NCBI GenBank assembly: GCA_001643675.2
Contig: LSRY02000075.1
Location: 1 to 64,000 of the forward strand
DNA length: 64,000 bases
Reading direction: 5' to 3'
DNA from: Monocercomonoides exilis PA203
Taxonomy: Eukaryota; Protista; Preaxostyla
Position 1 is the stretch's first letter. Each line of letters opens with the position of its first letter. The notes below the pieces were generated by a model. It saw nothing but the letters and a program-made list of their open reading frames with translations, did no database searches and was not told where the DNA came from. Of the stretch, positions 4,999 to 64,000 are shown piece after piece. The position numbers were made by a program, and so were the translations under genes.

Positions 4999-5218
4999 GC
5001 TTTCTTTTCAAAAATCATTTTTTCATAACTTTTCAAAGAAAACAATGATTGAAATTTAAGTCAATTCTATTTGAATAATAAGTTATAAACCTGAATATCA
5101 CACAATTTAATTTTCAAAAAGAGAAATTGTTAAACCACACTTTGGAAGAACAAATAATCAGTATTGACCTAAATAAAAAAATAAAAATATAAAAAAAAAT
5201 AATTCCAAAAATCAAAGT
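4999..5218. other. P1 central spacer (220 bp), homologous to the P2 spacer at ~55945-56155
   Basis: Blocks atcattttttcataacttttcaaagaaaacaatgattgaaattt, ataaacctgaatatcacaca and gttaaaccacactttggaagaacaaataatcagtat occur in both spacers in the same orientation. Confidence 0.92.
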
Positions 5219-41896: not shown

Positions 41897-43925
41897 TGAA
41901 GATCAATAATAATTATGGGTGTAAAACAAATTTTAATAAAAAAATTTTCTCAATGATTTTGAAATGAACCTTAATGAAGTTATTAATAGTTTCAAAAGAA
42001 ATGAACAGAATTATATATGTATATTTTATTCAAAGAATTTTGTTTCCTTTTTTTTTATTCACAATTTGGTTTCTCATTTTTCTGTAAACAGTGATGGAAA
42101 ACTAATGTTTGTTCAAAAATCAAAATACAAAATTTATTAAAATATAACAATTTATTTGATAAATTTATTTTTTGCGATCGTCTTATTTTTTCTTTGAAGT
42201 GAAGTGACTAAAAAAAGATTTCAGCCTTTTTTGAAAACACATTTTTTAATCTTTCTTTTATCTATTTTTTAACTCATCTTTCATCAATAAATATCTGTTT
42301 TTTACTTTAATATTGATACCCATAACAAAACATTCATTCTTGCATTTTAAATTTACTGTTTTTTCTGTGTTTATGGCTTTAATGAATTTGCATGCAGTTT
42401 ATGATTAAATTTACTTTATATTTTTGAGCATGCAGCAGCAAAAAAGAATGTGTTTTATTTGACCTTCGTTGGTAATTCACGAAGGAGAAAAATGTGCAAT
42501 TATGAAAGCCGGTTCGGCAAATGACAGTTATTTGATGGACGTTCAACACGCCAGAAAGTGTTTGGAAGACTACAGAAATCCAAAAATATTGCGATTCATT
42601 TCGTTTTGAAGGAGTGATTTTTTACCAATTTCATTATTTGAAGCCATACAAAGCAGTGTTGGATGCAAAACGAACTTGTTTTCTGACTTGAATTCTTTTT
42701 CCAAAGATTCTTTTATAACAACAATATGTTCATCGAGAAAAGAATGTATTGCCAGAAAATGGAAAAGAATATTAACTTAGTTTTTGATACAAAAACTGAA
42801 TGGAAAGCAAGTCCTACAGCAGTGAAAGCAGCAATGCAAAAAATGTTAGATGGTCTGGAATTTTTCATTTTTTCAAAAATGATATTTTGTAAATTTCCTT
42901 CAGTGAGACATCAATAAACCGTCAATGATACAAAGCTTGATTTCATTTAAATGTGAAGCAAAAAAAGGCCGGAATTCAGGAAAAGAACCGAATCACTTGA
43001 GCATTTATTTAAGAGAAATGTCTTCGTTTCAATTGACTTTAACATGCAATTGCCATTTTGCAACACAATCATGGAAGCTTGAAATCAATCCTTTTCGAGG
43101 ATTCCACAAAATTTCAACAAAAGAGAAGCACAAAGAAGGATTGACCGAGGAATCTCTGAAGCAAAAACAATTTTCAATCTGATAGGACGGAAGATAATCA
43201 AGAATAAAGATTCAGCTTGTTGGGAATGTTGAATGACTCAAAGATGAGGTGTGATCGACAAAAAAAGGAGGAAAAGGGAATAACAAGGGCTATCCTGTTG
43301 ACAAACAGACAAGAAGGAATAAAAACCATGTTCATAGAGAGTGGAATGCGAAATAAATAAATAAATAAATATTTCAATGGTTGCTCGAAAAGATGGAATC
43401 AAAGAAAAGCTTGATCTGATTTATAATATTTTGAAGGAGAAAAAGCAAGAAATATCACAAAATAGAAACACTTCTCGCAATGTTTTCGAAGATCAACTTG
43501 CATCAGATGTTTGTATTTATTTTTGTGCATTTATTATTTATTTATTCTTGATATACTATTTTCCATTTCCATTTATTCAAACAGAAGAAATCAGTTCATT
43601 TTTATTCTGATAATTTATACCCAACGCCAATATTTCCTCGAAGATATCCAAATTGAATATAAAACTTTTAGGATTATATTCATCGTTTTTGGGGGGTGTT
43701 TGTGAAGACAAAGCGATTCAAGGATTGAAAAAAAGAGGAAAACATTTAAATATTGTTTTTTTAAGAGTGATTATGAGACTGGTTCTGAATATGACTTTTT
43801 TTCAAAGTTATTGATTCAGAAAATGGAAGTTGAATGAGAAGAGTTGTTGTTGAAAAGGGAAAAATAATATTTTGCGAATGCTTCTGCTATAATGGTTTTC
43901 TACAACCCATTATTATCTTATTGAA

Positions 43926-46900
43926 ATGATTCCTTTTGTTTTGGTTTTGTGCTTGAGTTTATCATTCTGTGGCAATGATGAAAATGAACTGCTGCGCAAC
44001 GGAAAAGTCACCTTTTGCATTCCTGTTGCGAAGAAGAGTGTTGTTTTTACCAAGGGAAGTATTGTTCATGTACTCGGTAAGATTTACAATTCAACTGTTA
44101 AATTGAAGGGAATATTGGTCGAAAAGCGCGATGGCTGCTTAGCATTCGATATCTTCACAAGATCAATCCTTGTTGTTGAAAACTGCCATCTTTTGGAAAA
44201 GAGTGATTCTTATCATCATTATGTCAAAAATGAAGGAACATGCGAAATGATCAATACCTCCTTGTATTTTGAATACAAAGAAAAAAATGAGCTGATGAAA
44301 AGCGTTGTGCAGATGAATGATGAAGATTCATTGTTGCTTGTGAGAAAATGTGTTTGGAAGAATATTGCATTTTGTGGGAGTGGAAGCCTTTTGAGAGAAG
44401 GTTCAGGATGTTTTGAAGGAATTAAAAACTGTGAATTTGTGAATATCACAAAGAAACATAGCGAAAGAGAGACGAAGCAAATTGAAAAAGAGTTGATGAT
44501 GAAAATGAGCGTAATGGAAGATTGTCAAGTTGAAAGTTCAATGAATGTGCTTGAAGGAGGGATTGTGAGCGGAACGGAAGGATCTATTTTCTTTTCCTGC
44601 AACAATTGCACATTCAAGCACAACGAAAGAACTGATCGGAAAGTTAAAAATACAGAAAGAAATTCAACTACTGAGACACAGAACTTCATGAACGCTGAAT
44701 GGAATGGATGTTCTGCTCCATGTGGTGGAGCACTGTATGTGCATGATAATTCGAATGCAACGCTGACTGTTGAGAATTCATCTTTTGTGAAATGCAAAGC
44801 AACTTCAACGAGAGGAGGAGGAATATTTGCTCTGAATATTGCCGAATGCACAGTGAAACATTCCAAATTTGTTGAATGCAGTTGTATAATCACAGATAAT
44901 TATGGGGGAGGTGGAGCAGAAATTGAAGGATTGACAGTTCAAGTTTTTTTTGAGAATTGCTTTTTCAAAGATGATATTTCAGGGGACGATGGAGGTGGAT
45001 TGGGAATTTGGAGTTCAAAAACAACAAAATCAAAAGATTGTATTTTGGACTGTTCATATATTAATTGCACAGGGCTTAATAACACTGATTCTTATGGAGG
45101 TGGTATTATAAGTTGGGGCCCAGTTGATAAAATAGTTACTAAAAATTGTTTATTCCAAAGCTGTGATGCTATTTATTGTGGAGGCGGTGTTGCAATGAGG
45201 GTTCAGACTTTTGGAGGAGAATTAATTTGGTTTTGCTTTTTTCACAACAACGCTGCACAAAATGGTACTGACGTATTTGTGCATGATAACTCTTCGAATT
45301 CTCAACTCGTATGGTGCTGTTCAACACGAACAGAAGGAGTGAGATATTATGCTGGAGGCGATAAAAGTGAATGGCTTCCAAATGGAGGAAGAAGCAGATT
45401 CGTTTCTTCGAAGGAAAGTCAAGCCAATGCAAAAGACACATTCAGCTGCGGATTGAATGAATCCTGTGCATGTTTGACCATTAGCCATTGTCTATCCCAA
45501 ATGATTGTGGGGTTTGTGGAAGAAATAAAAGTGCTAGCTGGAATGGTTGTTGAAGGAAAAGGAATTGATGTTGGAGAGAAAACGATCTCTGTAAATGGAG
45601 TTTCGCCATCTGGGTCTGCCATTGCAACAAAATTTGAGGCAAATGGGTTGAGTCTGTTTTGCGTTGGAACAGGAGGATTGACTGTGAACGATCTATCAGT
45701 GATTCACAACACCTCATATGAAAACAACAGGCAATGCAGGCTGTTTGAGGTTGAGGGAAGTGGGTTGATGGATGTGAAGAGAATGAACATTTCGATGGAT
45801 GCAGCTCATTCAGAGGAGAGGTGTATTCAGAACTCACTCGTGAAACTGGAAGTGGGGCAGTTGAAGATGAAAGATGTAATGTGGGAACAAACATTCAGCT
45901 CCACAAGTTTGATATCACTTTCTCAGGAGGCAGCTGTGACATTGTATCTGGACAACTGCACATTCAACAATATTGTGAGAACAACAGCCGGTTCATCGTT
46001 GATGAGTGTGGGTGAAAGGTCATATTCAATAACTCTTGAGGGATGCACGCTTGATGGTTGTGGAAGTGAGGAATCTGAATTTGGAGGGGGAATGATGATT
46101 GAAATGGGAAGTTGGAGTTCATTGACGATAAGTGGAGGCATCGTGAAAAATTGTTTTGCTTCGATCACTCAAGGAAAAGGAGGTTGGATTGGGTTGAAAG
46201 TGGGAGATATAAATGCAGAGTTTCTTATTTCACCAGCATTTGAAGGGAACAGGGCCAAATGGGGAAGCAGTATTTTTGTTGACTCGATTGATTTGGAATC
46301 AACAGCAACAAGTGGGAAGATCACTTCATTGACAGCTTCAAATCCGTTGTTGGATGAAATTCGAGGATTCGATAAAGGCGATGATTCAATTCCGATTCCT
46401 TTGTGCGCTTATCTGATTTCAATTCCAGATGAGATTTATGTGAGCAATGTTGATGCATTTAATCACTTTCTTTGTGGATTTGCTGAATTTCCCTGCATGA
46501 TTCTGAAGCACTCACTGAAAAGGCAAGAAGAAGAAAAGAAGATTGTTGTCGATGGGATGATTGAAATGCAAGATGAGCTGGTATTCGACTCATTCAAGCA
46601 CACAATCAGAGGGAAAGATGGAAATAGTGGATGGAAGGTGAGCAATGATCCGAATAGAAGTGACGGAAGCATGATAACAGTCAGTGCAAATGCAAATATC
46701 AGTTCACTAATTCTCTCTGTTCCTTCTGTTCTTCCAAATTACGAAGCATTCTTCAGTTCCGCCTCACAATCATTTTCACTTGAAGATTGCTCGCTGACTT
46801 TTCAAGACTCCAAATCAGCGTTGTCTTATGTGTTTTTGTCAGTAACAGCAGGAGAGGTTTCTGTTTCATCGTTGAATGTCTTGTCTTTGGTTATTGGAGA

Positions 46901-49900
46901 TCATCCATTGATTTCTCTTGATGGAAGCAATGCTGCTGGTTCATTCACTTCTTTGAGTGCCGATGATATGAGCTCGACAGGAAATAGTGTTTTGTTTGGG
47001 GTGGCGAATGGAGCATCTTTTTCGATTAAAGATTCAACACTTTCAGTGAAAGCATCTTCACAAACAGATTTGCCATCAGGTTCAATTCGAGTTATTTCCA
47101 CAAATTCAGCCAAGATTTTGAAGCTCACAAACAACACGATGAATAGATTCAGAGGGATTGGGGAAAATGGAGGAGCTATAGAATGCACACTTGGGAGAGA
47201 TTGCTCTCTGGAAGTAGTTGGAGGGCTGATATCTGGGTGTGAGAGCAAAGGAGGAAATGGAGGAGGGCTGTGGGTTGAGATGAAAGAAGAATCATCCTTC
47301 ACTGTGGGAAACATGACAGATACTGACCAAGTGAATGCAATAACATCAAATGATGTCAGCGATTTATTTCAACTTGTGGATTGCAAGGCAAAGCGAAACA
47401 CATATGGAGAGCATGGATATGGAGGAGGGATTTATCTTCATTTGGATGATGGAGCTCAGTCATTCATTTTGGAGAAAATGTCATTTACTGGATGTGATGC
47501 TCAAGAAGGGAAAGAAATCTTCATCAATGCAAATGATCTTTCGAGTGCGATTAGCAGAAGCTCGATTGAATTTGAAGTTGATTTGAATAACTTCACAAAA
47601 TTGAATGGGTTTGAGAGATCAACATCAAGCGAGACATTTGCCATTCCACTGGTATTGTATCTGTGGAACAACTTTTCTGTGCAAGCATTTGTTGGAGGAT
47701 CATTGAGTCATGATTTTTCGAAGTGTGGATTTGAAGAGTTTCCATGCTCCACAATCACGAAGGCGGTGTCAATCTATTTTGAAGGGAAGAAAAAAGATAT
47801 CTCAATTATTGAGCCATTTGCCTTTAAGGAGGAATTGAGCTTGAGTACAGATGAATGGGGGATCAGAGCAAAGGACAATGAGATGAAATGTGGTGTTGTT
47901 GATCAGGCAGAAGGAGCACAAAGTGGATTGATAGAAAGCTCAGTCAGTGTGTCTGTGACCGGCATTGTATTTTCTTTGATTCAATCGCTGACCTTTCATG
48001 AAAGTGTGTTTGAGTGCTATTCAGGGAAGCTTACACTAAATGAATGTGGGATGGAAGGAGGCTCTGAGGCTATAACAACAGTGTTTGTGAAAGCTATTGG
48101 AGGGGTTGTGGAAGTGATTGAGTTTGGATCAAAGAATATGAAAAAAGGGGATACGTCGTTTTTCATTGTTGAGGGAAGCGCTGAAAGTGTGCCTTTACTA
48201 AATATGACGAAAAGCAATTTTGCTGAATTCACATTTGGCGATGGATGTGTTGTTGAGAGCTGCAATGGAAACATTGAAGAGATGTCAGGATGCACATTTT
48301 CATCGATTACTCGTTCGAAGGGAAGTGGAGGGTGCATCAGCATCACGAACAAGAATGATAACAATGGAAGAAATTTCAAAGTGGAAATAAATGACTGCAC
48401 ATTTGATGGATGTGCTGTTGAAGAAGAGGAAAATGAGATTGGAGGAGGTGCTCTCTTTTGTGAGGCATCTTCGAAAACGAGTCTGCTTATTAACGGGTGT
48501 AAGTTTTATGGTTGCACAGCACCATATGAAGGGGGAATTTCTGGATATGGAGGAGGGATGATGCTGAACATGTTAAATGAGGAAGAAGAGGAAACGTTTG
48601 TGATATCCTCACCAACTTTTTCTTCTGACAAACCAAACAATGCAAAATATGGGCAGGATTTGTTTATTTCGTCTCCATCGCTCGTCAAGAGCATCAAGAA
48701 CGAAACGCTTCCATTTGTGAAAGATAGACTGGAGAAACTGACAGAAGACTCGATGAGAGGGTTTGATGGAGAAAACAGGGAGCGTGCAATCCCACTGATC
48801 TATTTCTGGAAATCTGTTGGATCTAGTGTGTATATTGCAGAGGAAGGAAACAATGTTGTTGTGTGTGGGTTGTTGGAGTATCCATGTAGGTCTATTGATT
48901 ATGGGATGAATCGGATAAACAGTTCAACAGTTGAGCAGATGACGATTCATGGAGTTTGTGATGTGATGAGTGTGATAGAGATGAGTGGGATGAAGCTGGA
49001 AGGAACAGATGGAAAGTCAGACAAAATCCGATTTGTTCAATCAATTAAAGAAAATGGGAATGCTGTTGTTGAATGCAAAGGAGTTGTTCAATTCAATGAA
49101 TTGGGGATTCTGATTCCCAGTGCCTTTGATAATGGAGCAAACATCCTCATCCGGACAGGTTCAGATGCAGTCAAAACAAGTATTGTGAGTTGCACAGTTC
49201 ATAAAATTGAAAATGTGAAAGATGAGGTGTCATTTGTTCTGATCAGTGCTTTAAAAGGAATTTTTTCTATTGAAAAGACAAACATTGTTGGATTCTCAAC
49301 GATGCATGAGATAATGAGCACATCAGCTGATTGTGTGACAACCATGAACAATGTGATATTTAAAGATATTTCATTGGGCGGGAAAAGTGCAATTATGATG
49401 AGTGAAAGTGTGATTTCTGGATGTGGAAATGATTATTCAGAAGAAATGTGGAATATTCTATTTGAGCAATGCACTTTTGTGAATGTGAAGAACAATGAAG
49501 CAAGTTACCCTTCGTTGTTTTACTGTGATATTTCAAATAAAATGAGATTGAAAATGGATAATTCAACAATTGATGGGTGTGGGTCGACAAGTTCAAATGA
49601 AGGAGGAGGAATGTTCTTCCTCCTCAATGAGAGGGAGAGATTGGAAATGAATCACACAAATGTGACAGAATGCTTCTGTTCGAACACTGGAAGAGGAGGA
49701 GGATTGTTTTTTAAATCACAGAGTGTCTCACAGGAAGCATTGCCATTTGTGCTGTCGAACATCACCTTCCGAGGGAATGTTGCTTCAAAGGGGAGAGACG
49801 TGTTTGTGAAGTGCACTGATCTTGACTCACAGATAAGTGAATCTCAATTTTTAATTGATTTCAGAGAGCCATTTGTGAAGGATCAAGCGATTTGGGGATG

Positions 49901-52900
49901 CACAGCAGACAATTATGGGGATGAAGAGGATCTTCTGAAGAGGGTGTTTGTGTTCAGGAGCGAATTCATATTTGTTTCATCGATTGTGGGGAACAACAGC
50001 GACAGTAAGAACTGTGGGGAAATGAAAGGCGCATGCTCATCGCTGAATGTTGGGATGAGCCACATCATTCCCTCAAGCTATTCACAGCTGTATATTTGGA
50101 ATGAAACGACTTTAACTGGTTCGTGCTCTGCTCAAAAGGTGACCATAAAATCGATGGAAGCGAACAGAAATGCAGAGATAAAAGTGATTGAGATCAACTT
50201 GGCTGGTGAAGGAGCTGTGACAACTTCTGAGTTTGTTCGATTTGAGAATATTTCATTTGGTTTTGGTGGAATACAGAATGTTGCCTGCTCGTGTTTATTA
50301 CATCAGCTGAATGGATCTCTTATTCTCGAATCTGTTTCATTTCAATCTGAGTCGAGAACAACAGAGAATTCACAGACCATTTTTGATTTTTCTCTGATTA
50401 TTGTTGAAGAAGGGATATTTGAGGTCGATAAGTGCAATATTGGTCATATTGGTTTCTCGAAGCCTGTGTTTCAGATATTGCATTCAGAAATGGCAACATT
50501 TGAGGATGTGGGAGTGGATGATGTGGATTGCAAAAGTTCGATGATTGAATGTGATGAAAGCGAGAATTTGGGCATCATAAAGTTGAAAGCATCTAATATC
50601 ACCCTGCAAGATAAAAGCCTGTTTGCATTTGAAAATATCCATTCGTCTCTGTTTGTTTCATCATTGGTACAGTCGTCGTTCACAAACATCAGCCGATCAA
50701 CTTCTGGATCAAGCATTATTTGCACAACACATCCAATGAGTGGATTTGAGATTCGTAACTGCTCTTTCCATGAATGTGTGTCAAAATCGCTTAAAGGGAG
50801 TCAAGTGGCAATAGCAATGAGTGAGAATATTTTGATGAAGTTGTGCAAGTTTGAAGGAAATGCAAATGCTGATGCAGAATTGAATGAAATAACTAATGAG
50901 ATCTGTCGGTGGAATGGATCTGTTGTTGATTTTTCGAACTGCTTCGTGATGATGAAAGATACAATAGTTTGTAATTCCTCAAAAGGAGGAATGAGTGTAA
51001 GTGAAGGATCAACAATAGTTATTCAAGAAGGAAGATTTGAGAACAACAGCCCATCCATTGAGAATTATCCATCGGTGCGGAGAAACATGTTGTGTTCTGA
51101 TTCAGCTGAGGTGAATATTATGAGTCTGAAGGGAGGAGATGGAGTGTTGCCAGATTCATCGATGTGGATTCTGAATGATGGATGCACGCTGAAGGGGATT
51201 GTTGAGGAGCGAGCATCACCATTGTTCATCCCAGTGCTGGAGGATGTTTCTGTGAATGAAAATGGAAGAAATGCCATGATAAAATTCAAGGGCTCTCTTT
51301 TTGTGCCATGTGACTTATCTTTCAGAGTTGTGCATAAAACAGGGGATGTGGAGGTGATTGAGACATATCCTTTTGAGGAAGACAGTTTTGTATCAGAAAC
51401 GGAAGTTGGTGGGATGATTCCATCAGAAAATATTTCAACGATTGCAGACGAAACGGAGGTGTCTGTGATGATATTGTATGGAAAGCAATTGGCTGCAACT
51501 TCTTCTCAGATACTGAAGAACAGAACAGAACCAAAGACAGGAATTGATAAAGTGGTTGAAGGAGGAAAGGAAGGAAAATTCTCATGGATATTGATTGTTT
51601 GCATTGTAGCTGTTGTAGTGCTATTAATTGTGTCGATAATATTCATTGTTCGATGGAAGAAGGTGAAGAATGAAGCAGAAGACTTGAGAGAGATTGTGAA
51701 TGATAACATCAGAAAAGATCCGAAGGCATTTGAGATGGTGACGATGGAGATGTCACCAGAAGAGCAGTGGAGGAGAGCAGAGAGGGAGGCTGAGAAGAAG
51801 AATGATGAGAGGATAAAGAAAAGGGTGTATGAGAAAAGTTTGGGACATTCCGAGTCATCAGAGCATCTTCTCTCTGAGAGTGGATCAACAGAATACATTT
51901 TGGGAAGAGACTCAGACAAGATCCCTCAATGGATGCTGGAGAAGGTTGATGAGGAAGAAGATGATATATCGAGAAAGCGAACACCATCACCATCCATTTC
52001 ATCCACTTCTACCACAGACACGTCAGACACAGAATCCACATTTGTTCGATCGGAAAGTCTGTGCCCAACCACATCGTCGATGTCGAATCTGGTGGATGCA
52101 ATGGCCTGCTCGTCTCCCCATGAGAAGCTGATTGTGGATCTGAGGGATTCGCTGTTCATGCTTCTTCATGGAAAGAATGAGAAGAAAGAGATGGCAATCG
52201 GAACTCTCCAGGAGAGGGAGGTGACGGCTGCTCAGATCCTGTTCTGGGTGGCCAATCTTGCACTCCACTCGTTTGATGAAATGAACAATCCACTTCAATC
52301 TCTTACCAATCTGAGTCCCCACATTGTGCTGTTCTCTGAGCACATGGTAATTACAATTGCCCTCCACTCTGACTGCTCTTCTTCAGATTCTGATTCATCC
52401 TCCATCTCTTCATCAACTGTTGTCACATCAACAAGTGATGATGATGATGATGATGACAGAAACTCTCTGCCCTCGTCTGCCTTTGAGGATGAGGAAGACA
52501 ACAGGAAGGAGTGCATGAGGTGGAAGGCGCCAGAGCTGCTGAATGGAACAAGGAAGCATGCGACGAAGAAGACGGTTGTGTTTTCTGTTGGGATGATGGT
52601 GTGGGAGTGTGTGACGCTGCAGATTCCGTTTGGGGAGTATTCGGGAGAGGCAGCAGGGAGCATGATTGTGCGAGGAGAGAAGGTGGGGATGGGTGTTGCG
52701 AAGGGGTCGCGTGTGAGGGGGGGTTGTGGGTGGGTGCCTGCGTTATGAGGCAGAGGATCGGATGACGCTGGGAGATGTGAAGCGGGAGCTGATCAAACTG
52801 TTCCCTCCGGGTGCAGCAGTGCTCACGATGACAGATGCGATCGGGTACGAAGAGGAGTCGGAGGAGGCCTGCAGCACCAGCTTGGCCATCATGGCCAGTG

Positions 52901-53010
52901 GAGCCAGCATGAACAGCACGACATGCATGACCAGCATGACAGACATTGGCAACAGATCCAGAGACATGAAGAAGCCAGAGGAAGTGAAGGATGAGGCGAA
53001 TGGCAAATGA
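43926..53010 (+). CDS. Second giant receptor-pseudokinase (~3030 aa): signal peptide, ~5 CG..C modules, TM, and the same cytoplasmic pseudokinase tail. +1 frameshift in the G7 run at 52717-52723.
   Basis: ORF 43926..52748 (MIPFVLVLCLSLSFCG; TM WILIVCIVAVVVLLIVSIIFIV) plus ORF 52726..53010 supply the same C-terminus as the P1 gene. P1 has gtgagaggggtt where this copy has one extra base in a G run. Confidence 0.88.
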
Positions 53011-55841
53011 TGAGGAGATCAGAACAGAACAGAGGAGAGCAGGATAATGAAATAAAAAAATCAGACAAGAGGAGTTGAGCATTCATTGGAAAACTTTGAA
53101 TGTGTTCAACATTTTTGAACAGCACAGAAATAGAGTTGGTTTTGAACAGAAAAAAGAAAAAGATAATGAAAAATGAAAAAGAAAAAGAAACCCTGGTGCA
53201 GATAACACAATGGCCATTGGAGGACGAGTGAAGCCAGAAGGCTTCTCTGAACCCGTGGGAGCAATGATTGGTTGTTGCCCATTGTGTTGTGGATGCTTGT
53301 CCAGGTGCATGGTGCATGGTGCATGCTGGGAAAAGCGGCAATGCCCACATGGCCGAACTCTGATCAGCACAGCATCGCTTCAGACAAAACATTTCATATT
53401 CCATTTTCAGTTGTTGTTGGAATAATTTTATTTATTTTATGTGTGTATTTTTGTATGGTTGTATCCATCTTCACAATATGAAGCATTTGCAGGATGGGGC
53501 AAGAACTGCCCAGTTGCTGCTGTTTCATTTCCTCTCTTTATTTTTTTTTTTTTTTTTTTTCATTTCAAAGAAAAACAAGAAGAAAACTCGATATTCAGCA
53601 TCTGTAAAAGCAGTCGAAGTCATTCATGATTTTGTGGTGCTTTGTGGCTGGAGTGCCCATTGACCACGAAAGAAGCACGGGGAGGGCAAAAGACTTGGAC
53701 GTATTTGCTGGAGAGCTGTTGTTCTGCTGTTCGGGTGCTGTCAGCCAAGTCTGTTTCTGAGTAGCCGGGCAAGGCTCAACACATCCCCACAAAAGTTGGG
53801 AAAGATATTTTCTGCATCTTGTCTCCTCCTGATGAATGGCAAGCATCAGTCATCCAACTGCTTCAAATGCAGTTCCAATCAAGAATGCAATCGAATTAAC
53901 ATGAGAAAGAAAGAAATGCTCTTTTATTGGCATTTCTTCTTCTTTTTTTTTTTCCAGCTGAGAGAGGACATTCTTTTTCCAGTGCAGGAAAACATCTTGT
54001 TGTTTGTGCCATTGCACACACACACACACATACACATTATTGTGAGTTGTTGAATCTGTGGTTGAGTGTGTTTGCCTCCATGAGCTTCCCGTCAAAGGCC
54101 ACTGAGCATGAGAATAGCAGATGAAGGTGAATGATTGCTGTTGTTTGTTGATTTTGTGGGAGTTGCATCTCTAACACAATGGAACAAATACTCATGGCCA
54201 AGCAAAATTAGCACATATAGGGTGGTCCATATTTCTTTGCAAAAATAATAAAAAATGGGAAATAAAAAATAAAAATATCAAAAAATATTCGATAAAACTG
54301 AATTTTGTTCGTCAATCGGTTTGTGAGCTGATCAAATACATGATAAGCTTCAATTTGTTAAAGTTTGGAGCTTCCAGATATTCGAACAATTCGTTCCTGG
54401 AATACAAAAATTTTTCTAATAATTTCAACAGATATGATTTTTCAATGGTTTGATAGTTGGAAAAGGTGATTGCAATTTGTAACGACTCATAAATGTGATT
54501 ATTATTATGAAAAATGTTTTTTAATAAAATTTTAATACCATATTTAATAATTTAAACAAAATATTTTGGACCACCCTATACTACAAATATGAATCGAATT
54601 ATTCAGGATTTGTGATGGTTCCCAATGGTATTGATTTTTGTTCCAATTTCTTTTATCGCTTCTGAGGAAAAAATAAACATTGGCAAAATTTTGTTATTCC
54701 ATTTCTTCAACTGAAGAGACAATTTGACAAAGCGTTTTCAATGTGGGATAAGAACATCTTCCTCAACAGTCAATGTGTTTGTTATAATGTCATAGCATTA
54801 ATTGGCTGAAAAATGTTCTTCCAATGACAGCATTTGTCAGTGGAAACACATTCAAAAAACACCACATTTTGCCACATATGCCCACAACAAGGAAGTGCAG
54901 TTGAACTTCGATCTCAACTGTTTGAGGGCAATCACCAACATATGTGAGCAATACTTTTATTTGTCTTCTTTATTCATTGGGGTCCTTGTTCTTATTTATT
55001 TTGTTTATTCAAATCATTTCAAACAATAAAATAAAATATTTTTTTTTTAAATTATTTGTGATTTTTAATAAAAGCTGAACTTCGACAAAAATTTTTTATT
55101 TTCAAAAAAAAAAAAAAAAAAAACGAAAATACCTCTTTTGAAGAAATAACTCAAAATTTTCCACTCTTTGTTTTTTGATGATGATTTTCTTGTTTTTTTT
55201 TCGAAGAACGTCTGAGGCAAAAACATAGCACTTCAATCATTTTCTTCAAAATTAACTGCACCATTCATGAACTTTTTGGTTAATTTACAATAAATAAAAA
55301 ATACCCGTTTGATGGATTGGTTTTTTTATAAAAAATATATAATGAATGAGACAAATCAACAAAATTACTGCATCAATGGTGTTTTCAAACAAATGAGACA
55401 AATTTTGATTGATTCACTGCAATTTGTAGGTGTTGCTATTTTATTGAAGGAAATGACACGTTTATGCATCAAGAAAAGAAGCTTGAAAATCCAATTCCTT
55501 TTTCAACATATTTGTTGTTGTGTTTTTCTTTTTCACACTGATCTTTGTTATTCTTCGCTTGATTCTTTTCATGTTTGGTGATTGTTTTTGAAATCATAAC
55601 TGTTTTCGGAATGTGGATAATTTGTTCTATCTCTTTTATGATGAGCACCTTTTTTTTTTGAATTCTAAATATTCAATTCACTGAATTCAGAGTTGCAAGA
55701 AACAAACAAACAAGTGTTCAACAAACTCCACAAAGTTTTGCATTTCCTTCAGGGAAAGAAACATTTGTGAAATATCATCAGACAATTATTGATTGAAATT
55801 TTTCTGATTGAACAATAATGATTATAACTATATTTGACAAT
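52718..55841 (+). repeat. Palindrome P2, left arm (the part whose mirror lies inside the window)
   Basis: Mirror ORF pairs 52726..53010/63708..63992, 54802..55029/61694..61921 and 55309..55581/61142..61414. Confidence 0.96.
54218..54578. mobile_element. MITE, Tc1/mariner-type (361 bp; TIR TAGGGTGGTCCA; TA target duplication)
   Basis: ta|TAGGGTGGTCCAtatt...aatatttTGGACCACCCTA|ta. Absent from the homologous P1 site (tagcacacacaaaaaatatgg, ~3641-3661). Confidence 0.9.
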
Positions 55842-56230
55842 ATCATCATTTGTGTTTTGAAAATTCAAAAACACTTCTTCCCACTTCATTTTTCTTTTTT
55901 TGATTCAAATTCCAATTCATTATATCTGTAAGTATCTTCATTTTTTAATATCATTTTTTCATAACTTTTCAAAGAAAACAATGATTGAAATTTCAGTCAA
56001 TTCTTTTTGAAAAATAAATTATAAACCTGAATATCACACATTTCAATCTGCAAAAAGAAAAATTGTTAAACCACACTTTGGAAGAACAAATAATCAGTAT
56101 CATCCAAAAAAATGAAGCAAAAAAATTAAGAAATTATTCCAAAAATCAAAGCCATATCCATGAATTTTTGAATTTGGAATTTTAATCAAAAAAAGAAAAA
56201 TGAAGTGGAGAGAATTGAAAGAGAAAATGG

Positions 56231-56299
56231 TTATTTCACTTCCTTCTCTTATATTTTTGAGAGCGCCACGTTATGGGTCAGTCACCCAGCTGATCAAAA
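56231..56299. repeat. DIRS 3' inverted terminal repeat
   Basis: ttatttcacttccttctcttatatttttgagagcgccacgttatgggtcagtcac..gctgatcaaaa is the reverse complement of 60746-60815 with few mismatches. Confidence 0.93.
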
Positions 56300-56550
56300 T
56301 GGCACTTAATGAAATGGTGAACAAACGTGCAAATGGGAAAATATAAAGAATTGAAACTTGGCAAATTGAAAATTATAACAAATGCAGTGAAAACACATGT
56401 TAGAAACAAGAAAGGTATTATTTAATAAATTTGAATGTTTTGAAATATAAACTTTAAAGAGAAGGTATTATTAGTGTTTAATTTTCACATCATTGTTATT
56501 CAGCAATGATTGATTCATAAGGGGATGTGATGTCTAAGTTGTGGAGGGAG

Positions 56551-56658
56551 TAAGAGAAGGAAGTGAAATAACCATTTTCTCTTTCAATCAAAACACAAGC
56601 GTTTTGATTACATAGAAAACATTTATTTCACTTCCTTCTCTTATATTTTTGAGAGCGC
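56551..56658. repeat. DIRS internal complementary region (ICR)
   Basis: 56551-56588 is the reverse complement of the element end 56214-56251, and 56585-56658 is the reverse complement of the other end 60780-60853. The two halves overlap at caat. Confidence 0.93.
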
Positions 56659-56687
56659 AGATAATTGGGAAGGTTTGATAATGTTAA

Positions 56688-58409
56688 TCAGCTTGAACTT
56701 GAATCCTTTTCTTCGTGTTGTTTCTTTTCCAATTCTTTTCTTCTTTGAGATCTTGTTCGGATAATGAATTCAATCTTAGCCTCGCTGATAACTGTCTGTA
56801 CAGTATTGTTTTCTTCGGTGTCCTCTGGTTCCTCAACTTTATCTGAGTATGCAAATATTGCTTGTTGTTTTTGATCTCCGCTTTTACATATTTTCTTTGT
56901 TGGTGTTTGTTCCTCGGATTTTGAACTGGAATTTGTTTCGGAATCGGATTCCGCCTCAGAATCTGAATCGGATTCTGACTCAAGCCCACTTTCTTCAGGT
57001 GGAAGAATAGTTGAATTGCCTCTTGCTATCACGTGGGCCAGCTTGCTTGACACATCTGATCGGACGTAATGCTTTGTGATAGTGTTGCTTCTAGGAGAGA
57101 GTCTGGCAAACTTAGCAATTTGGGCTAAGGGAATTCCTGCCATCGGTAGCGCAGTGATAGACGCATGTTTCAATGAGTAAGGCCCGAAACACCTCGGAAT
57201 CCCGGCATCCTGTAACATTTCAGCTGCATAGTTACGAATCCTTCTTGCAGAAAGTGTTAGATGAGTTTTCTCATCAATGAATAGTGAAGTTGCATTTGGC
57301 TGAGATTCTTTGATTCTGTTCCAAAGTTCCTTTACGGAAGCTGCTGGGCACACAAGCGGCTGTTCTTTTAGAAACGGGATGATAATATCTGTCCGTTCTG
57401 TCGATGTTTTTAATGATGAATCAAGTTTTATTTCATCGTCTCCAATTGTTGAATTATGGAGGTTAATCCTTTCCAACTCCGTAAAGCGACAGGCGGAGAA
57501 CAACATACATGTGCAAATAACCTTTTTTGTCAATTCGTGAAAATCAAGGTTCCTGTTCTCACCTAATGATGTTATTTTCAGCAGTAGGAGTTGTGGGTTC
57601 CAGATGTCTGGTTTGTCTCTTTTCTTCCTGTTTTCTGATCTTCTGAATGATTTTAATAGCCTTTGCATGAGAGCAGATTCTCCAAGGCCTCTTTTGTACA
57701 GTAATTCTGAGATAAGAGAAAATGCGGCACATGTTTGTTTGAGCGTCGAAGCTTTCGTCCCTTTGTCCTTCAGGCTTATGAAGATGTGAGCACATTTTTC
57801 AACCCAGGTACTCCAAGCTTCCGGTGGGTCTCCATTTCGATTATCTTCCCATATTTCACTGAAACGTGCATAACTATATGAATATCCTTTCCATGTGTTT
57901 TCAGCAACGCTATTTTTGCATTCATCGATTACCCTTTCGGAATATCCCTTTGAAAGAAGCATTCTCCGAAACCATTCTTCTCCTTGTGATACTAAGGATT
58001 GATTAGGACTATTCTCATTCTGCCTGGTGGTAGACTTGCTTCCATCCGTTTCATCCATCTTCCTTCCTTCAAAACCTGGTTCAGTTCTTTCCATCTCCAT
58101 TCGCAGTGTCTCGACATTCTTATCAGTGGTTCCCATATCTGCCCTCTCCAATCTGGCATCAGAAGAAGAACATGTGCATTTTCCTCTATTGATTTCACAA
58201 TCGTTGGAACTATTGACGGAATCGGAGGATAGGCTAAAATAACGCCTCTTTGCCATGATTGCTGGAGTCCGTCTTCGTTTAGCGTGCTTCCTGGACCGCA
58301 CCATCTGTCCGCTTTCGTGTTCTCGTTCGTTGCGAACGCATCCAACGTTATTATGAGATTGAGGTTTTCGGTGATCTCGTTTAGCTCTTCTTGTTTTATG
58401 GAGTAATCT
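56688..58409 (-). CDS. DIRS tyrosine recombinase ORF (fused to RT-RH in the ORF track only because of the frameshift at 58410-58414)
   Basis: FSACRFTEL (catalytic R, 57486-57488), LKT, VCPAAS, PYSLKHASITAL (HxxRH position, 57165-57182) and KHY (Tyr, 57066-57068). Acidic/Ser tail; TGA at 56688. Confidence 0.88.
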   Translation of the reverse strand, partial: RLLHKTRRAKRDHRKPQSHNNVGCVRNEREHESGQMVRSRKHAKRRRTPAIMAKRRYFSLSSDSVNSSNDCEINRGKCTCSSSDARLERADMGTTDKNVETLRMEMERTEPGFEGRKMDETDGSKSTTRQNENSPNQSLVSQGEEWFRRMLLSKGYSERVIDECKNSVAENTWKGYSYSYARFSEIWEDNRNGDPPEAWSTWVEKCAHIFISLKDKGTKASTLKQTCAAFSLISELLYKRGLGESALMQRLLKSFRRSENRKKRDKPDIWNPQLLLLKITSLGENRNLDFHELTKKVICTCMLFSACRFTELERINLHNSTIGDDEIKLDSSLKTSTERTDIIIPFLKEQPLVCPAASVKELWNRIKESQPNATSLFIDEKTHLTLSARRIRNYAAEMLQDAGIPRCFGPYSLKHASITALPMAGIPLAQIAKFARLSPRSNTITKHYVRSDVSSKLAHVIARGNSTILPPEESGLESESDSDSEAESDSETNSSSKSEEQTPTKKICKSGDQKQQAIFAYSDKVEEPEDTEENNTVQTVISEAKIEFIIRTRSQRRKELEKKQHEEKDSSSS

Positions 58410-60089
58410 CCCCCTTTCTAGCCTGGATAGAGCATCTGCTCTGACATTCTTCATCCCTGGCAAGTGTTGGGCTTTTATCTGAATGTGATTGTTCTTAACA
58501 AATGTCCACATTTTCATCAGCAACTTCCTGAGGTTTGTTCCTGCATTCCATCGATTGATATTGAAGACCGCTGTTGTTTTGTCTGATCTGATTAGCAAGC
58601 TGCAGACTTTGTTCGCTTGAAGAAGGTATCTGAAATGATTGAGTGCTCGATTGATTGCATATAATTCCCTGAAATTCGAGCTCTGGCCTTTCATCTTCCC
58701 TGGAAGCGATTGATGGAAATCGTATTTCTTGTTGTTCATCAATAGAAAAGCTCCCACGGCTCTCTCTGATGCATCTGTCGTCAAGGTTGCTTGTGGTTGG
58801 AATATTGGACAAATCTGTCTCGGTTTGTTCGCATTCAGTCTCGATATCCATTTTTGAATGCTCGGAAGGATTGATGGGTTGATTCTCATCCTTCCTTTCC
58901 ACCCCACTTTTTTGACCATTCTGTTCAGCAGCATGTACATTGATGGAAGAAGGAGTGAAGCTTCCTTGAAAACGAAGCGAGTTGCACTAAGCTTTCCAAT
59001 GAACGACGCGAAATCTCTCACTCTTGTTTGCTTGCATTTCAGTGCTCGGCGCCTCCATCTGTAACATTCTGTGAGCAATTCTTTCTTTCTGTCTTTCTCC
59101 AGAGTTACGGTGAAGTTGGAAGTGTCCCATGAATATCCGAGGAATGAAAAACGATTTGATGGTTCTGTGTGGCTCTTTTCCAGGTTTACAATTAGTCCAA
59201 GCTTTTGAAATAGACTTATAACTTCTTGTGCGATTCTCTTTAGTTCTTGCTTGTCTTGATGGAGCAAGACAATGTCGTCTAAATATGCGACAGCTTTCAC
59301 CTTCCATCTTTCCCGAATGAACGAAATGACCTTTCTCATAACTTTTGTGAATATTCTTGGAGAGTCCTTGTAACCGAAAGGCATGCTGGTGAAGCAATAA
59401 AATTCTTTGTTGAATTCGAAGCTTAGAAAAGGAGTGAAATCCTCTGAGACCTTGATGAGGTAGTAAGCTTGGCTTAAATCCAGTGTAACTGCGAAATCCC
59501 CATTCTTTATAATTCTTTCCACAGATCGATGATCCTCTTGTTTGAAGTGAATTGTTTTTATCGTATTGTTTAACCTCCTGCAATCCACAATCTGTCTCCA
59601 GCTCCCATTTTTTTTCCTGACAACAAATATTGGATTGAGAAATTTCACTTCGTTTTTGGTGGTTTTCCTGAGAATTCCAGTTTTCACTTGAACTTTGATT
59701 AACTCCGCCAAGGCTTCCCTTGCTTCTTGTGATTGCTTCGGTCTCCTGCAATTTACCTGAGAGTTGATAAGGGTTTTACGAGCTTTGGAACTCCTCCAAA
59801 CCGGAACTACTCCTCTTTTGATCATCTTTTCTCCTCCCACAATTTTCCATGCATCGGAAAATAACGCTGTTCTTCCACCAATTGTGAGGTTGTGTTCTAT
59901 TGAGACTTTGCTTTGTCCCCGGAACTCCCTCTTGAGTAATTTCTTGGAGCGCTGCTTGTGATGAATGATCGTTTTGTGCTGGGCGTCCGGGGCCAATCTC
60001 GAAAAAACCGATAATTCTTTGTTCCACTTTGAAATCCCCTGGTTTGTTTCTTCCTTGTATATAAATTTGTGATACTTGCAGACCCCCAT
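57992..60089 (-). CDS. DIRS pol: reverse transcriptase - RNase H - Dam-like adenine methyltransferase, with one frameshift at the C5 run 58410-58414
   Basis: RT: IFVVRKKNGSWRQIVDCRRLN, LDLSQAYY, MPFGYKDSP, AYLDD (59274-59285), FLG. RNase H: TTDAS, NFRELYA, HLPGMKNVRADALSRL. The shifted frame continues DYSIKQEEL..LDAFATNENTK..AYPPIP..MPDWRGQIW..LPPG to TAG at 57992. Confidence 0.92.
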
Positions 60090-60739
60090 CTTTGTTTCGT
60101 GGATATCTTCTTCGATTCTTCTAAAATTTCTTTTTGTCTTTGAGTTAACAGCGATGATGAGAACTTGTCTTTCATTTTTTCTGATTCAGAAAATCCATAT
60201 CTTGCTTGTATTCTAACGTGTCTAACTTCTTTCAGTGCCTGGGCTAAAAGTAAACATGAATCTGCTATCATTTCTTTCGTCGTATCTCCTGACTTGATTG
60301 TTGAACATGCCGAGATAAGTAACTTTATTGCTGGATAAAGATATGTTTCCGTCCTTTCCCCCGCACGATCGAGCGCGTCTTTCCATTATTCTTTGGATCT
60401 TGTAAATGGTGGAGGAGCATTCTGGATAAAAGGAATCAAATCTTTATCTTTAAAAAATGATTAAGTTTTGTTAATTTTATTCTCTGGTGGATGCATATCA
60501 TGAAATGAAATTTCTTGTGGCTGTCCAAATATTTCCATGAAAGCTTGCTGCAATGAAGACTCTCCTTCATCTTCTTCAATTCGTGTTAAATCTGTCCTGC
60601 CATCAAGTGCAGACTGAAAGATTTATTGGGAAGCGGAATAACTCCCTGCTATTGAAGGAATTGCACTCGGAGGGCCGCCAGTCAGCGGAGCTGCGCAAGG
60701 TTCGGTCGCGAGTCCGGTTCCCACGCAGATGGTCGACAT
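59897..60739 (-). pseudogene. DIRS ORF1 (gag-like), 281 codons with three in-frame TAA
   Basis: ATG at 60739, just inside the 5' ITR. A single frame runs to TAG at 59897, interrupted only by TAA at 60623-25, 60461-63 and 60386-88. It overlaps the start of pol, as in DIRS elements. Confidence 0.75.
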
Positions 60740-60745
60740 GTTTTC

Positions 60746-60853
60746 TTTTGATCAGCGATCGTGACTGACCCATAACGTGGCGCTCTCAAAAATTTAAGAG
60801 AAGGAAGTGAAATAAATGTTTTCTCTGTAATCAAAACGCTTGTGTTTTGATTG
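60746..60853. repeat. DIRS 5' inverted terminal repeat (60746-60815) plus terminal extension with a hairpin (60829-60852)
   Basis: Reverse complement of 56231-56299 and of the ICR half 56585-56658; hairpin aatcaaaac-gcttgt-gttttgatt. Confidence 0.92.
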
Positions 60854-62143
60854 TTCATGAATTTTTAAGACAAATAATGACATTGTCAAATATAGTTATA
60901 ATCATTATTGTTCAATCAGAAAAATTTCAATCAATAATTGTCTGATGATATTTCACAAATGTTTCTTTCCCTGAAGGAAATGCAAAACTTTGTGGAGTTT
61001 GTTGAACACTTGTTTGTTTGTTTCTTGCAACTATGAATTCAGTGAATTGAATATTTAGAATTCAAAAAAAAAAGGTGCTCATCATAAAAGAGATAGAACA
61101 AATTATCCACATTCCGAAAACAGTTATGATTTCAAAAACAATCACCAAACATGAAAAGAATCAAGCGAAGAATAACAAAGATCAGTGTGAAAAAGAAAAA
61201 CACAACAACAAATATGTTGAAAAAGGAATTGGATTTTCAAGCTTCTTTTCTTGATGCATAAACGTGTCATTTCCTTCAATAAAATGGCAACACCAACAAA
61301 TTGCAGTGAATCAATCAAATTTTGTCCCATTTGTTTGAAAACACCATTGATGCAGTAATTTTGTTGATTTGTCTCATTCATTATATATTTTTTATAAAAA
61401 AACCAATCCATCAAACGGGTATTTTTTATTTATTGTAAATTAACCAAAAAGTTCATGAATGGTGCAGTTAATTTTGAAGAAAATGATTGAAGTGCTATGT
61501 TTTTGCCTCAGACGTTCTTCGAAAAAAAAACAAGAAAATCATCATCAAAAAACAAAGAGTGGAAAATTTTGAGTTATTTCTTCAAAAGAGGTATTTTCGT
61601 TTTTTTTTTTTTTTTTTTTGAAAATAAAAAATTTTTGTCGAAGTTCAGCTTTTATTAAAAATCACAAATAATTTAAAAAAAAAATATTTTATTTTATTGT
61701 TTGAAATGATTTGAATAAACAAAATAAATAAGAACAAGGACCCCAATGAATAAAGAAGACAAATAAAAGTATTGCTCACATATGTTGGTGATTGCCCTCA
61801 AACAGTTGAGATCGAAGTTCAACTGCACTTCCTTGTTGTGGGCATATGTGGCAAAATGTGGTGTTTTTTGAATGTGTTTCCACTGACAAATGCTGTCATT
61901 GGAAGAACATTTTTCAGCCAATTAATGCTATGACATTATAACAAACACATTGACTGTTGAGGAAGATGTTCTTATCCCACATTGAAAACGCTTTGTCAAA
62001 TTGTCTCTTCAGTTGAAGAAATAGAATAACAAAATTTTGCCAATGTTTATTTTTCCTCAGAAGCGATAAAAGAAATTGGAACAAAAATCAATACCATTGG
62101 GAACCATCACAAATCCTGAATAATTCGATTCATATTTGTAGTA

Positions 62144-62504
62144 TAGGGTGGTCCAAAATATTTTGTTTAAATTATTAAATATGGTATTAAAATTTTATTA
62201 AAAAACATTTTTCATAATAATAATCACATTTATGAGTCGTTACAAATTGCAATCACCTTTTCCAACTATCAAACCATTGAAAAATCATATCTGTTGAAAT
62301 TATTAGAAAAATTTTTGTATTCCAGGAACGAATTGTTCGAATATCTGGAAGCTCCAAACTTTAACAAATTGAAGCTTATCATGTATTTGATCAGCTCACA
62401 AACCGATTGACGAACAAAATTCAGTTTTATCGAATATTTTTTGATATTTTTATTTTTTATTTCCCATTTTTTATTATTTTTGCAAAGAAATATGGACCAC
62501 CCTA
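62144..62504. mobile_element. Mirror copy of the 361-bp MITE in the right arm of P2
   Basis: Same TIRs and TA duplication (62142-43, 62505-06); the coordinate sum with 54218-54578 is 116722 at both ends. Confidence 0.9.
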
Positions 62505-63707
62505 TATGTGCTAATTTTGCTTGGCCATGAGTATTTGTTCCATTGTGTTAGAGATGCAACTCCCACAAAATCAACAAACAACAGCAATCATTCACCTTCA
62601 TCTGCTATTCTCATGCTCAGTGGCCTTTGACGGGAAGCTCATGGAGGCAAACACACTCAACCACAGATTCAACAACTCACAATAATGTGTATGTGTGTGT
62701 GTGTGTGCAATGGCACAAACAACAAGATGTTTTCCTGCACTGGAAAAAGAATGTCCTCTCTCAGCTGGAAAAAAAAAAAGAAGAAGAAATGCCAATAAAA
62801 GAGCATTTCTTTCTTTCTCATGTTAATTCGATTGCATTCTTGATTGGAACTGCATTTGAAGCAGTTGGATGACTGATGCTTGCCATTCATCAGGAGGGGA
62901 CAAGATGCAGAAAATGTCTTTCCTGACTTTTGTGGGGATGTGTTGAGCCTTGCCCGGCTACTCAGAAACAGACTTGGCTGATAGCACCGAAACAGCAGCA
63001 CGACAGCTCTCCGGCAAATACATCCAAGTCTTTTGCCCTCCCCGTGCTTCTTTCGTGGTCAATGGGCACTCCAGCCACAAAGCACCACAAAATCATGAAT
63101 GACTTCGACTGCTTTTACAGATGCTGAATATCGAGTTTTCTTCTTGTTTTTCTTTGAAATGAAAAAAAAAAAAAAAATAAAGAGAGGAAATGAAACAGCA
63201 GCAACTGGGCAGTTCTTGCCCCATCCTGCAAATGCTTCATATTGTGAAGATGGATACAACCATACAAAAATACACACATAAAATAAATAAAATTATTCCA
63301 ACAACAACTGAAAATGGAATATGAAATGTTTTGTCTGAAGCGATGCTGTGCTGATCAGAGTTCGGCCATGTGGGCATTGCCGCTTTTCCCAGCATGCACC
63401 ATGCACCATGCACCTGGACAAGCATCCACAACACAATGGGCAACAACCAATCATTGCTCCCACGGGTTCAGAGAAGCCTTCTGGCTTCACTCGTCCTCCA
63501 ATGGCCATTGTGTTATCTGCACCAGGGTTTCTTTTTCTTTTTCATTTTTCATTATCTTTTTCTTTTTTCTGTTCAAAACCAACTCTATTTCTGTGCTGTT
63601 CAAAAATGTTGAACACATTCAAAGTTTTCCAATGAATGCTCAACTCCTCTTGTCTGATTTTTTTATTTCATTATCCTGCTCTCCTCTGTTCTGTTCTGAT
63701 CTCCTCA

Positions 63708-64000
63708 TCATTTGCCATTCGCCTCATCCTTCACTTCCTCTGGCTTCTTCATGTCTCTGGATCTGTTGCCAATGTCTGTCATGCTGGTCATGCATGTCGT
63801 GCTGTTCATGCTGGCTCCACTGGCCATGATGGCCAAGCTGGTGCTGCAGGCCTCCTCCGACTCCTCTTCGTACCCGATCGCATCTGTCATCGTGAGCACT
63901 GCTGCACCCGGAGGGAACAGTTTGATCAGCTCCCGCTTCACATCTCCCAGCGTCATCCGATCCTCTGCCTCATAACGCAGGCACCCACCCACAACCCCCC
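63708..64000 (-). CDS. 3' end of a fourth receptor-pseudokinase gene copy (continues beyond the window)
   Basis: ORF 63708..63992 is identical to 52726..53010 (GGCLRYEAEDR...DEANGK). Confidence 0.85.
   Translation of the reverse strand, partial: GVVGGCLRYEAEDRMTLGDVKRELIKLFPPGAAVLTMTDAIGYEEESEEACSTSLAIMASGASMNSTTCMTSMTDIGNRSRDMKKPEEVKDEANGK

What the first reader, a model, noticed from the sequence alone, without database searches (positions are those of the whole stretch)
54216..62506. The same MITE insertion is in both arms of P2 and in neither arm of P1, while the DIRS is on one side only
Seen: 361-bp MITEs at mirror positions (54218-54578, 62144-62504) with the same TA site, and empty sites at ~3647 and ~6565. 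Because P1 and P2 share the spacer, the palindrome probably predates the MITE. Inference: a single insertion was copied across arms by conversion, or was erased from both P1 arms. The 4.6-kb DIRS next to the centre was not copied. This provides an internal marker for the reach of conversion.
Basis: partly seen in the sequence, partly recalled or inferred. Interest (0 to 1): 0.75.

Follow-up and report, generated by a model that had tools for sequence, protein, structure and literature searches.

The report
Transposon copied across kinase-gene palindrome arms
In a gut protist, two mirror-image (palindromic) gene pairs each keep their arms nearly identical; a small transposon sits in both arms of one pair, likely copied by arm-to-arm DNA repair as known from Y chromosomes, while a large retroelement near the centre likely blocks that copying rather than measuring its reach.

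Summary
Observation confirmed. Identical 361-bp TA-flanked MITEs sit at mirror sites in palindrome P2; both P1 sites are empty; a 4.6-kb DIRS retroelement is single. The palindromes carry tail-to-tail 3' ends of kinase-like genes of an oxymonad family and share a spacer. Of 2,708 four-way columns, 122 are fixed P1-versus-P2 differences, 23 are private to one P2 arm, and none follows arm position. The MITE is therefore the largest of many co-copied differences, most likely inserted once in P2 and copied by arm-to-arm repair. Contigs of one sample hold the exact MITE junctions and no listed MITE-skipping joint; depth fits two copies in two deep runs but not clearly in two shallow runs. The 'reach of conversion' reading fails. 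The DIRS lies inside the right arm, about 65 bp from the inner edge, so size and position are confounded. Arm differences pile up on both sides of it, so it behaves as a barrier. The process is known (Y/X palindromes, Giardia VSP pairs); my searches found no report of it in oxymonads.

The parts
54218..54578 (+). MITE copy in P2 left arm, 361 bp, 12-bp TIR, TA on each side (54216-17, 54579-80)
   Evidence: junction contigs (mirror coordinates)
62144..62504 (-). MITE copy in P2 right arm, identical to the left copy
   Evidence: 0 differences in 361
52718..55873 (+). P2 left arm as far as it can be paired inside the window (kinase 3' end plus non-coding tail)
60852..64000 (-). P2 right arm, cut by the window end; 23 substitutions against the left arm in 3,149 columns, clustered
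55874..56217 (.). P2 centre: diverged inner-arm remnants plus spacer homologous to the P1 spacer
   Evidence: exact left junction contigs in X1 and X4
56214..60853 (-). DIRS1-like retrotransposon inserted at ATTG inside the right arm; gag with three in-frame stops, RT-RNaseH, Dam in another frame, tyrosine recombinase
56551..56658 (-). DIRS internal complementary region (38/38 to one terminus, 72/74 to the other, overlapping at the junction)
1..4998 (+). P1 left arm (cut by window start); empty MITE site near 3647
4999..5217 (.). P1 spacer
5218..10229 (-). P1 right arm; empty MITE site near 6565; empty DIRS site 5281-5284
43893..53007 (+). Kinase-like large gene whose 3' end lies in the P2 left arm (frame break near 52719 is likely an assembly error)
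7735..20242 (-). Kinase-like large gene whose 3' end lies in the P1 right arm
53700..53824 (+). Patch of 11 arm differences: 6 private to the left arm, then 5 private to the right arm; likely imports from a further paralogue
   Evidence: right-arm alleles in X1, X2, X3 contigs

Best explanation
P1 and P2 are two diverged copies of one tail-to-tail kinase-gene palindrome whose arms are nearly identical within each copy, likely because breaks in one arm are repaired from the other; the MITE likely inserted once in P2 and was copied to the second arm by such repair, and the DIRS likely stayed single because it lies only about 65 bp from the arm's inner edge, where it would block copying. Shown: the anatomy, the concerted pattern, and the exact MITE junctions in contigs. 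Inferred order: (1) the palindrome with its spacer was duplicated; (2) each copy homogenised its own arms; (3) the MITE entered a TA site that P1 lacks; (4) a synthesis-dependent repair tract starting in the empty arm read through the 363-bp heterology; (5) the DIRS cut off the inner arm remnant, which stayed diverged while P1 homogenised the same stretch; (6) short patches came in later from other paralogues.
For: Four-arm alignment: 122 fixed P1-vs-P2 columns, 23 single-arm columns, 0 columns grouping left-with-left, out of 2,708. 20 of 28 gap events are shared within a palindrome. P1 arms have 0 substitutions in 2,692 columns, while P1 vs P2 differ at about 130 of 2,680. The spacer is more diverged than the adjacent arm (23/207 vs 66/1,237, Fisher p=0.003), as in human P6 (PMC3723533 passages). 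The MITE lies in an 875-bp substitution-free run. Contigs: the P2 arm-spacer junction is exact in X1 and X4, and the DIRS-right-arm join appears in X2 with 28 letters on the short side. The inner MITE junction is exact and bridged in 4 of 4 runs; outer-junction pieces are exact in 3 of 4 runs but hold only 27 MITE letters. None of 13 listed joints skips the MITE, and one search lists no joints. MITE pieces give 28.8-31.9 per copy in X1 and 94.7-115 per copy in X4 if two copies are assumed, against baselines of 32.6 and 111. Next to the DIRS: 6 substitutions and a 2-bp gap in the outer 32 bp vs 17 in about 3,119 (p=4e-8, window chosen after looking), and 11 substitutions in 68 columns on the inner side where P1 has none. 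The named relative species lacks NHEJ but has homologous recombination (PMC6759080 passage). Fly gap repair copies 322 bp of non-homologous sequence (PMC3887531 passage).
Against: No single molecule spanning an arm-specific marker and the MITE was available. All four runs are contigs of one sample, possibly the window's own source, and the tool warns that depth is not copy number. In X2 the three MITE pieces look single-copy (4.8-6.1 vs 6.5-9.8). In X3 two pieces fit two copies and two do not. Two X4 arm pieces away from the MITE also look single-copy, and one X4 MITE piece is far deeper (509.8). Only 8 pieces per run were shown, and 283 loose ends were hidden. X2's DIRS-arm contig differs from the left arm at 16 letters where the window predicts 7, so it is a mosaic or another locus. 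The left-arm private patch 53700-53733 was not seen in the displayed contigs. Short-tract conversion cannot be told from one whole-arm re-synthesis. There is no outgroup to polarise events.
Confidence: 0.72

Rival explanations
1. One arm was rebuilt wholesale in a single event (fold-back or break-induced re-synthesis primed at the inner arm), so the MITE was carried as part of a whole-arm copy and not by a local conversion tract.
For: P1 arms show one substitution-type column and otherwise only indels over about 5 kb. P1's left inner edge carries right-arm sequence where P2 has about 25 bp of unrelated spacer sequence. Only 2 of P2's 23 arm differences are isolated.
Against: Both palindromes keep the same spacer with homologous junctions. 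P2 keeps diverged inner-arm remnants older than the homogenised arms. It is still arm-templated repair, differing only in tract length.
Confidence: 0.14
2. Assembly collapse: only one P2 arm carries the MITE, or a palindrome is a fold-back artefact, and the assembler or polisher wrote the same arm twice.
For: P1 arm differences are nearly all small indels of error type. The window has uncorrected frame errors. X2 depth and two X4 pieces look single-copy.
Against: Two loci about 5% diverged share the same centre. P2 arms differ at 23 sites, and right-arm alleles sit in contigs with P2-specific flanks in 3 runs. Centre junctions appear in contigs. No P2-type MITE-skipping joint is listed. Deep runs fit two copies.
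Confidence: 0.08
3. One reading: the MITE was ancestral and was erased from both P1 arms.
For: Cannot be excluded without an outgroup; donors outside the palindrome seem to exist.
Against: P1 has CA where the TA target would be and no footprint. One X3 loose end shows a third empty-site variant, also with CA. The two copies are 361/361 identical while family relatives differ.
Confidence: 0.03
4. Two independent insertions of an active MITE at the same TA.
For: The family has other copies with TA next to the termini (2 of 3 loose ends).
Against: Same site, mirror orientation, identical sequence. No other copy in 64 kb. Exact interior pieces are mostly near two-copy depth. 122 point differences were co-copied anyway.
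Confidence: 0.02
5. Separate question, first reader's claim: the DIRS was within reach of conversion but too large (or too recent) to be copied, so it sets a limit between 0.36 and 4.6 kb.
For: It is 13 times larger than the MITE and is single. RT and recombinase frames are open.
Against: Only about 50-65 bp of imperfect inner homology, so size and position are confounded. It does not look brand new: three in-frame stops in gag, 2 mismatches between ICR and terminus, and raised arm divergence on both flanks. Kb-scale indels inside primate palindrome arms are documented between species (PMC8327919 passages).
Confidence: 0.12

Closest known systems
Arm-to-arm gene conversion in human/ape Y and X palindromes (PMC3723533, PMC8327919; passages read)
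   Same: Arms closer within a palindrome than between homologous palindromes; spacer more diverged than arms; change concentrated near the centre; genes in the arms; multi-kb tracts reported.
   Different: Here the comparison is between paralogous palindromes 50 kb apart in a protist, not orthologues on sex chromosomes. Arms are kb-scale with a 0.2-kb spacer. A 363-bp MITE is the marker. No GC bias is visible in the 23 private changes (8 toward GC, 11 toward AT; these are unconverted differences, so a weak test).
Giardia muris identical VSP gene pairs, five tail-to-tail and two head-to-head (PMC7641422; passages read)
   Same: Metamonad gut protist; identical inverted pairs of a large gene family; conversion suggested for the family.
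   Different: Different family (tyrosine-kinase-like large proteins here); no TE markers or paralogous-palindrome test in the passages read.
Homology-dependent gap repair in Drosophila (PMC3887531; passages read)
   Same: Copies a few hundred bases of non-homologous sequence (322 bp in about 10% of events) when flanked by homology.
   Different: Experimental, P-element-induced, sister-chromatid template; here natural, and the template is inferred to be the opposite arm.
DIRS1-like retrotransposons (PMC3266345; passages read)
   Same: ITRs, two overlapping ICRs with a junction matching the target, gag, RT-RNaseH-MT and tyrosine recombinase.
   Different: Terminal motif reads AAT in the sense direction, not the usual NTT; this copy has stops in gag and a frame switch before the MT domain.

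Membership tests
Palindrome under arm-to-arm concerted evolution | Palindrome predates divergence of the compared copies (shared spacer and junctions) | tested here: met
   Spacer 184/214 columns match, both junctions homologous
Palindrome under arm-to-arm concerted evolution | Arms closer within than between copies | tested here: met
   122 fixed, 23 private, 0 arm-position columns of 2,708
Palindrome under arm-to-arm concerted evolution | Spacer more diverged than arms | tested here: met
   11% vs 5.3%, p=0.003; spacer is short and AT-rich
Palindrome under arm-to-arm concerted evolution | Structure exists in native molecules (both arms on one read) | tested here: inconclusive
   Junction contigs in several runs of one sample; no spanning read available
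Palindrome under arm-to-arm concerted evolution | Individual non-reciprocal events seen across individuals, with tract lengths | not testable with these tools
   One sample only
Tc1/mariner-type MITE (superfamily rule recalled) | Short, non-coding, terminal inverted repeats | tested here: met
   361 bp, 12-bp perfect TIR; no ORF of 150 aa or more
Tc1/mariner-type MITE (superfamily rule recalled) | TA target-site duplication | tested here: met
   363-column gap against P1; TA kept at 2 of 3 other-locus loose ends
Tc1/mariner-type MITE (superfamily rule recalled) | Dispersed multi-copy family | tested here: met
   Contigs with other flanks at both termini
Tc1/mariner-type MITE (superfamily rule recalled) | Autonomous partner transposase sharing the TIR | not tested
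   No whole genome held
DIRS1-like retrotransposon | RT, RNase H, Dam methyltransferase, tyrosine recombinase | tested here: met
   RVT_1 6e-29; RNaseH 7.7e-6, Phage_integrase 1e-5 and Dam 4.8e-5 are below Pfam's curated cut-offs
DIRS1-like retrotransposon | ITRs plus two overlapping ICRs with circular junction | tested here: met
   ITR 81 bp at 90%; ICR 38/38 and 72/74, overlapping on the junction
DIRS1-like retrotransposon | Integration at a sequence equal to the junction | tested here: met
   ATTG once in P1, at both ends in P2
DIRS1-like retrotransposon | Terminal NTT trinucleotide (usual, not universal) | tested here: not met
   Sense-strand termini read AAT vs PMC3266345

The most novel reading that the evidence does not exclude
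The oxymonad's largest gene family is built on dozens of small self-repairing tail-to-tail palindromes. With no NHEJ, breaks are mended from the opposite arm: mid-arm insertions are doubled or purged, insertions at the inner edge push the arm boundary outward, and arms creep into the spacer. This would give many replicate Y-like palindromes in one protist genome, with transposons as dated markers, and make insertion co-conversion bias directly measurable.
Probability: 0.25. Interest if true: 0.65.

Novelty: new member of a known kind. Interest (0 to 1): 0.4.

Why it matters
It extends Y-chromosome-style palindrome conversion to an oxymonad gene family and gives a clean natural case of a whole transposon copied between arms. 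It also shows why an uncopied insertion cannot be read as a size limit unless it has homology on both sides. If such palindromes are common in this family, they would allow a count of how often insertions are doubled versus erased, which is hard to obtain from the few known palindromes.

Tried and rejected
Three look-ups in earlier scan notes returned nothing. A TATA-target, 357-bp element model was rejected: it needs an extra 2-bp indel to fit the P1 site length. Zero depth over 60965-61414 in X4 and over most of it in X2 is not taken as absence; these contigs appear to merge P1 and P2 variants. C-terminal all-vs-all of 120 cluster representatives plus 3 window ORFs gave few pairs at 96% or more and cannot show orientation. 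A ploidy search gave no usable paper, so haploidy is not claimed. PMC13688818 (passages) describes a palindrome without conversion and gave no TE precedent. No paper explicitly reporting a TE copied into both arms turned up or 39 (listings only, library incomplete). Private patches match nothing else in the window. No supplements were consulted.
Full report
Observation. Self-BLAST shows two long inverted repeats: P1 (1-10229, cut by the window start) and P2 (52718-55873 paired with 60852-64000, cut by the window end), 90-92% alike including gaps. The MITEs at 54218-54578 and 62144-62504 are identical (361/361), with a 12-bp perfect TIR and TA on each side. Against P1 the gap is 363 columns, element plus one TA. 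P1 has CA at the target and no footprint. The DIRS occupies 56214-60853 on the minus strand. It has ATTG at both ends, 81-bp ITRs, an ICR matching both termini (38/38 and 72/74), and RT, RNase H, Dam and recombinase domains (the last three domains score below Pfam's cut-offs).

Context. The arms hold the 3' ends of convergent large genes with a C-terminal kinase-like domain. A search with the last 452 residues found 531 relatives; 118 of the 120 listed carry Monocercomonoides names and two are marked as the window's own. I infer an oxymonad. Tyrosine-kinase-like genes are that species' largest family, and it lacks NHEJ but has homologous recombination (PMC6759080 passages). Its long-read genome paper has 0 hits for 'inverted' or 'DIRS' in the main text (PMC8767320 term search). 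A library search for Monocercomonoides plus palindrom* listed one unrelated review.

Concerted evolution. In the four-arm alignment, 122 of 2,708 ungapped columns separate P1 from P2 with both arms agreeing. 23 columns are private to one P2 arm and none groups left with left. 20 of 28 gap events are shared within a palindrome, the MITE being the largest. P1 arms have 0 substitutions in 2,692 columns. The spacer is shared (184 matches, 23 substitutions in 214 columns) and more diverged than the neighbouring arm (11% vs 5.3%, p=0.003), as reported for human P6 (PMC3723533 passages). The palindrome therefore predates the split and each copy has homogenised its own arms since. The MITE sits 394 and 122 bp from the nearest arm substitutions and about 1.3 kb from the DIRS site.

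Is it real? Four contig runs, all of one sample and study and possibly the window's source, hold the region. The P2 left arm-spacer junction is exact in X1 and X4. An X2 contig joins the DIRS end to right-arm-type sequence (28 letters on the short side). An X4 joint reproduces an inner-arm mirror. The inner MITE junction is exact and bridged in 4 of 4 runs; outer-junction pieces are exact in 3 of 4 but hold only 27 MITE letters. None of 13 listed joints skips the MITE, and one search lists none. The displayed loose ends at the site are P1-type (X3, X4) or a third variant (X3); 283 loose ends were not shown. Assuming two copies, MITE pieces give 28.8 and 31.9 per copy in X1 (baseline 32.6) and 110.8, 115 and 94.7 in X4 (baseline 111); one X4 interior piece is much deeper at 509.8. 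Against this, X2's three MITE pieces look single, X3 is split two and two, and two X4 arm pieces elsewhere look single. Depth is weak evidence by the tool's own warning, and only 8 pieces per run were displayed. X2's DIRS contig has 16 differences from the left arm where the window predicts 7, so it is a mosaic or another locus.

The DIRS is a barrier, not a ruler. P1's arms are identical inward to 4998/5218, and the DIRS site equals P1 5281-5284, about 65 bp inside the arm. In P2 the remnant on its inner side differs from its partner at 11 of 68 columns. The outer 32 bp carry 6 substitutions and a 2-bp gap against 17 in about 3,119 elsewhere (p=4e-8, window chosen after looking). Two-ended repair needs homology on both flanks (established knowledge), so position alone explains non-copying. 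The element does not look brand new: three in-frame stops in gag, 2 ICR mismatches, and a frame switch between RNase H and Dam that may be real or an assembly error. No size limit can be read from it. P1's left inner edge carries right-arm sequence over about 25 bp where P2 has unrelated sequence, suggesting P1's arm crept into the spacer (inference).

Arm differences in P2 are clustered (17 of 22 neighbour gaps at 40 bp or less; null mean 5.6, none of 20,000 shuffles reached it). At 53700-53824, six left-private changes are followed by five right-private ones (runs P=0.004). The right-arm alleles lie with P2-specific flanks in contigs of X1, X2 and X3; the left patch was not seen in displayed contigs. 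I read these as short imports from other paralogues, or polishing errors for the left patch.

Generality. I picked 10 multi-member clusters from the 120 hits (not a random sample). All 10 hold a second locus on a contig of the same length, 2-37 accession numbers away, at 91.7-99.9% identity. Three pairs are 99% or more identical, at 2, 3 and 8 numbers apart. Orientation is unknown, so these are only candidates for further palindromes.

Mechanism and comparison. Most likely a single MITE insertion in P2 was copied by repair templated on the opposite arm (inferred). Fly gap repair copies 322 bp of non-homologous sequence in about 10% of events (PMC3887531 passages). Whole-arm re-synthesis is the main rival and differs only in tract length. 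It works like Y/X palindrome conversion and resembles Giardia's identical tail-to-tail VSP pairs (PMC7641422 passages). The sequence criteria for membership are met; single-molecule and population criteria could not be tested. DIRS features follow PMC3266345 (passages). The TA-target assignment to Tc1/mariner is recalled.

Verdict. Real, partly reinterpreted, a new member of a known kind; interest 0.4.

Noticed in passing
window 27180-27599 and 27767-28186: A third, small non-coding palindrome: 420-bp arms, 411/420 identical, with differences only near the two ends, around a 167-bp spacer. Either a long-TIR element or another homogenised palindrome.
   Followed up: partly
window 21570-23197: ORF with a weak DDE_Tnp_4 (Harbinger-type) match, E=4e-4, next to a 255-aa ORF with no family.
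   Followed up: no
window 4975-5003: P1's left inner arm carries right-arm sequence where P2 has about 25 bp of unrelated sequence: possible creep of the arm into the spacer.
   Followed up: partly
window 52719 and 1-1320: Likely assembly errors: a one-base excess near 52719 contradicted by contigs in 4 of 4 runs and by protein P0001; several small indels in the far P1 left arm.
   Followed up: partly
window 54585, 60932, 61464, 61544 (loose ends): Contig ends unlike both P1 and P2 point to at least one more paralogous arm outside the window.
   Followed up: no
window 56214-60853: A structurally complete DIRS1-like element with many diverged relatives in the runs; a 2011 survey treated DIRS1-like elements in excavates as unconfirmed (PMC3266345).
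   Followed up: partly
window 55420-55691: Very high summed contig depth and loose ends at 55577-55609, suggesting a short high-copy repeat motif inside the arm.
   Followed up: no
window 29506-41307: A 3,933-aa ORF on the minus strand with no Pfam family at E 0.01.
   Followed up: no
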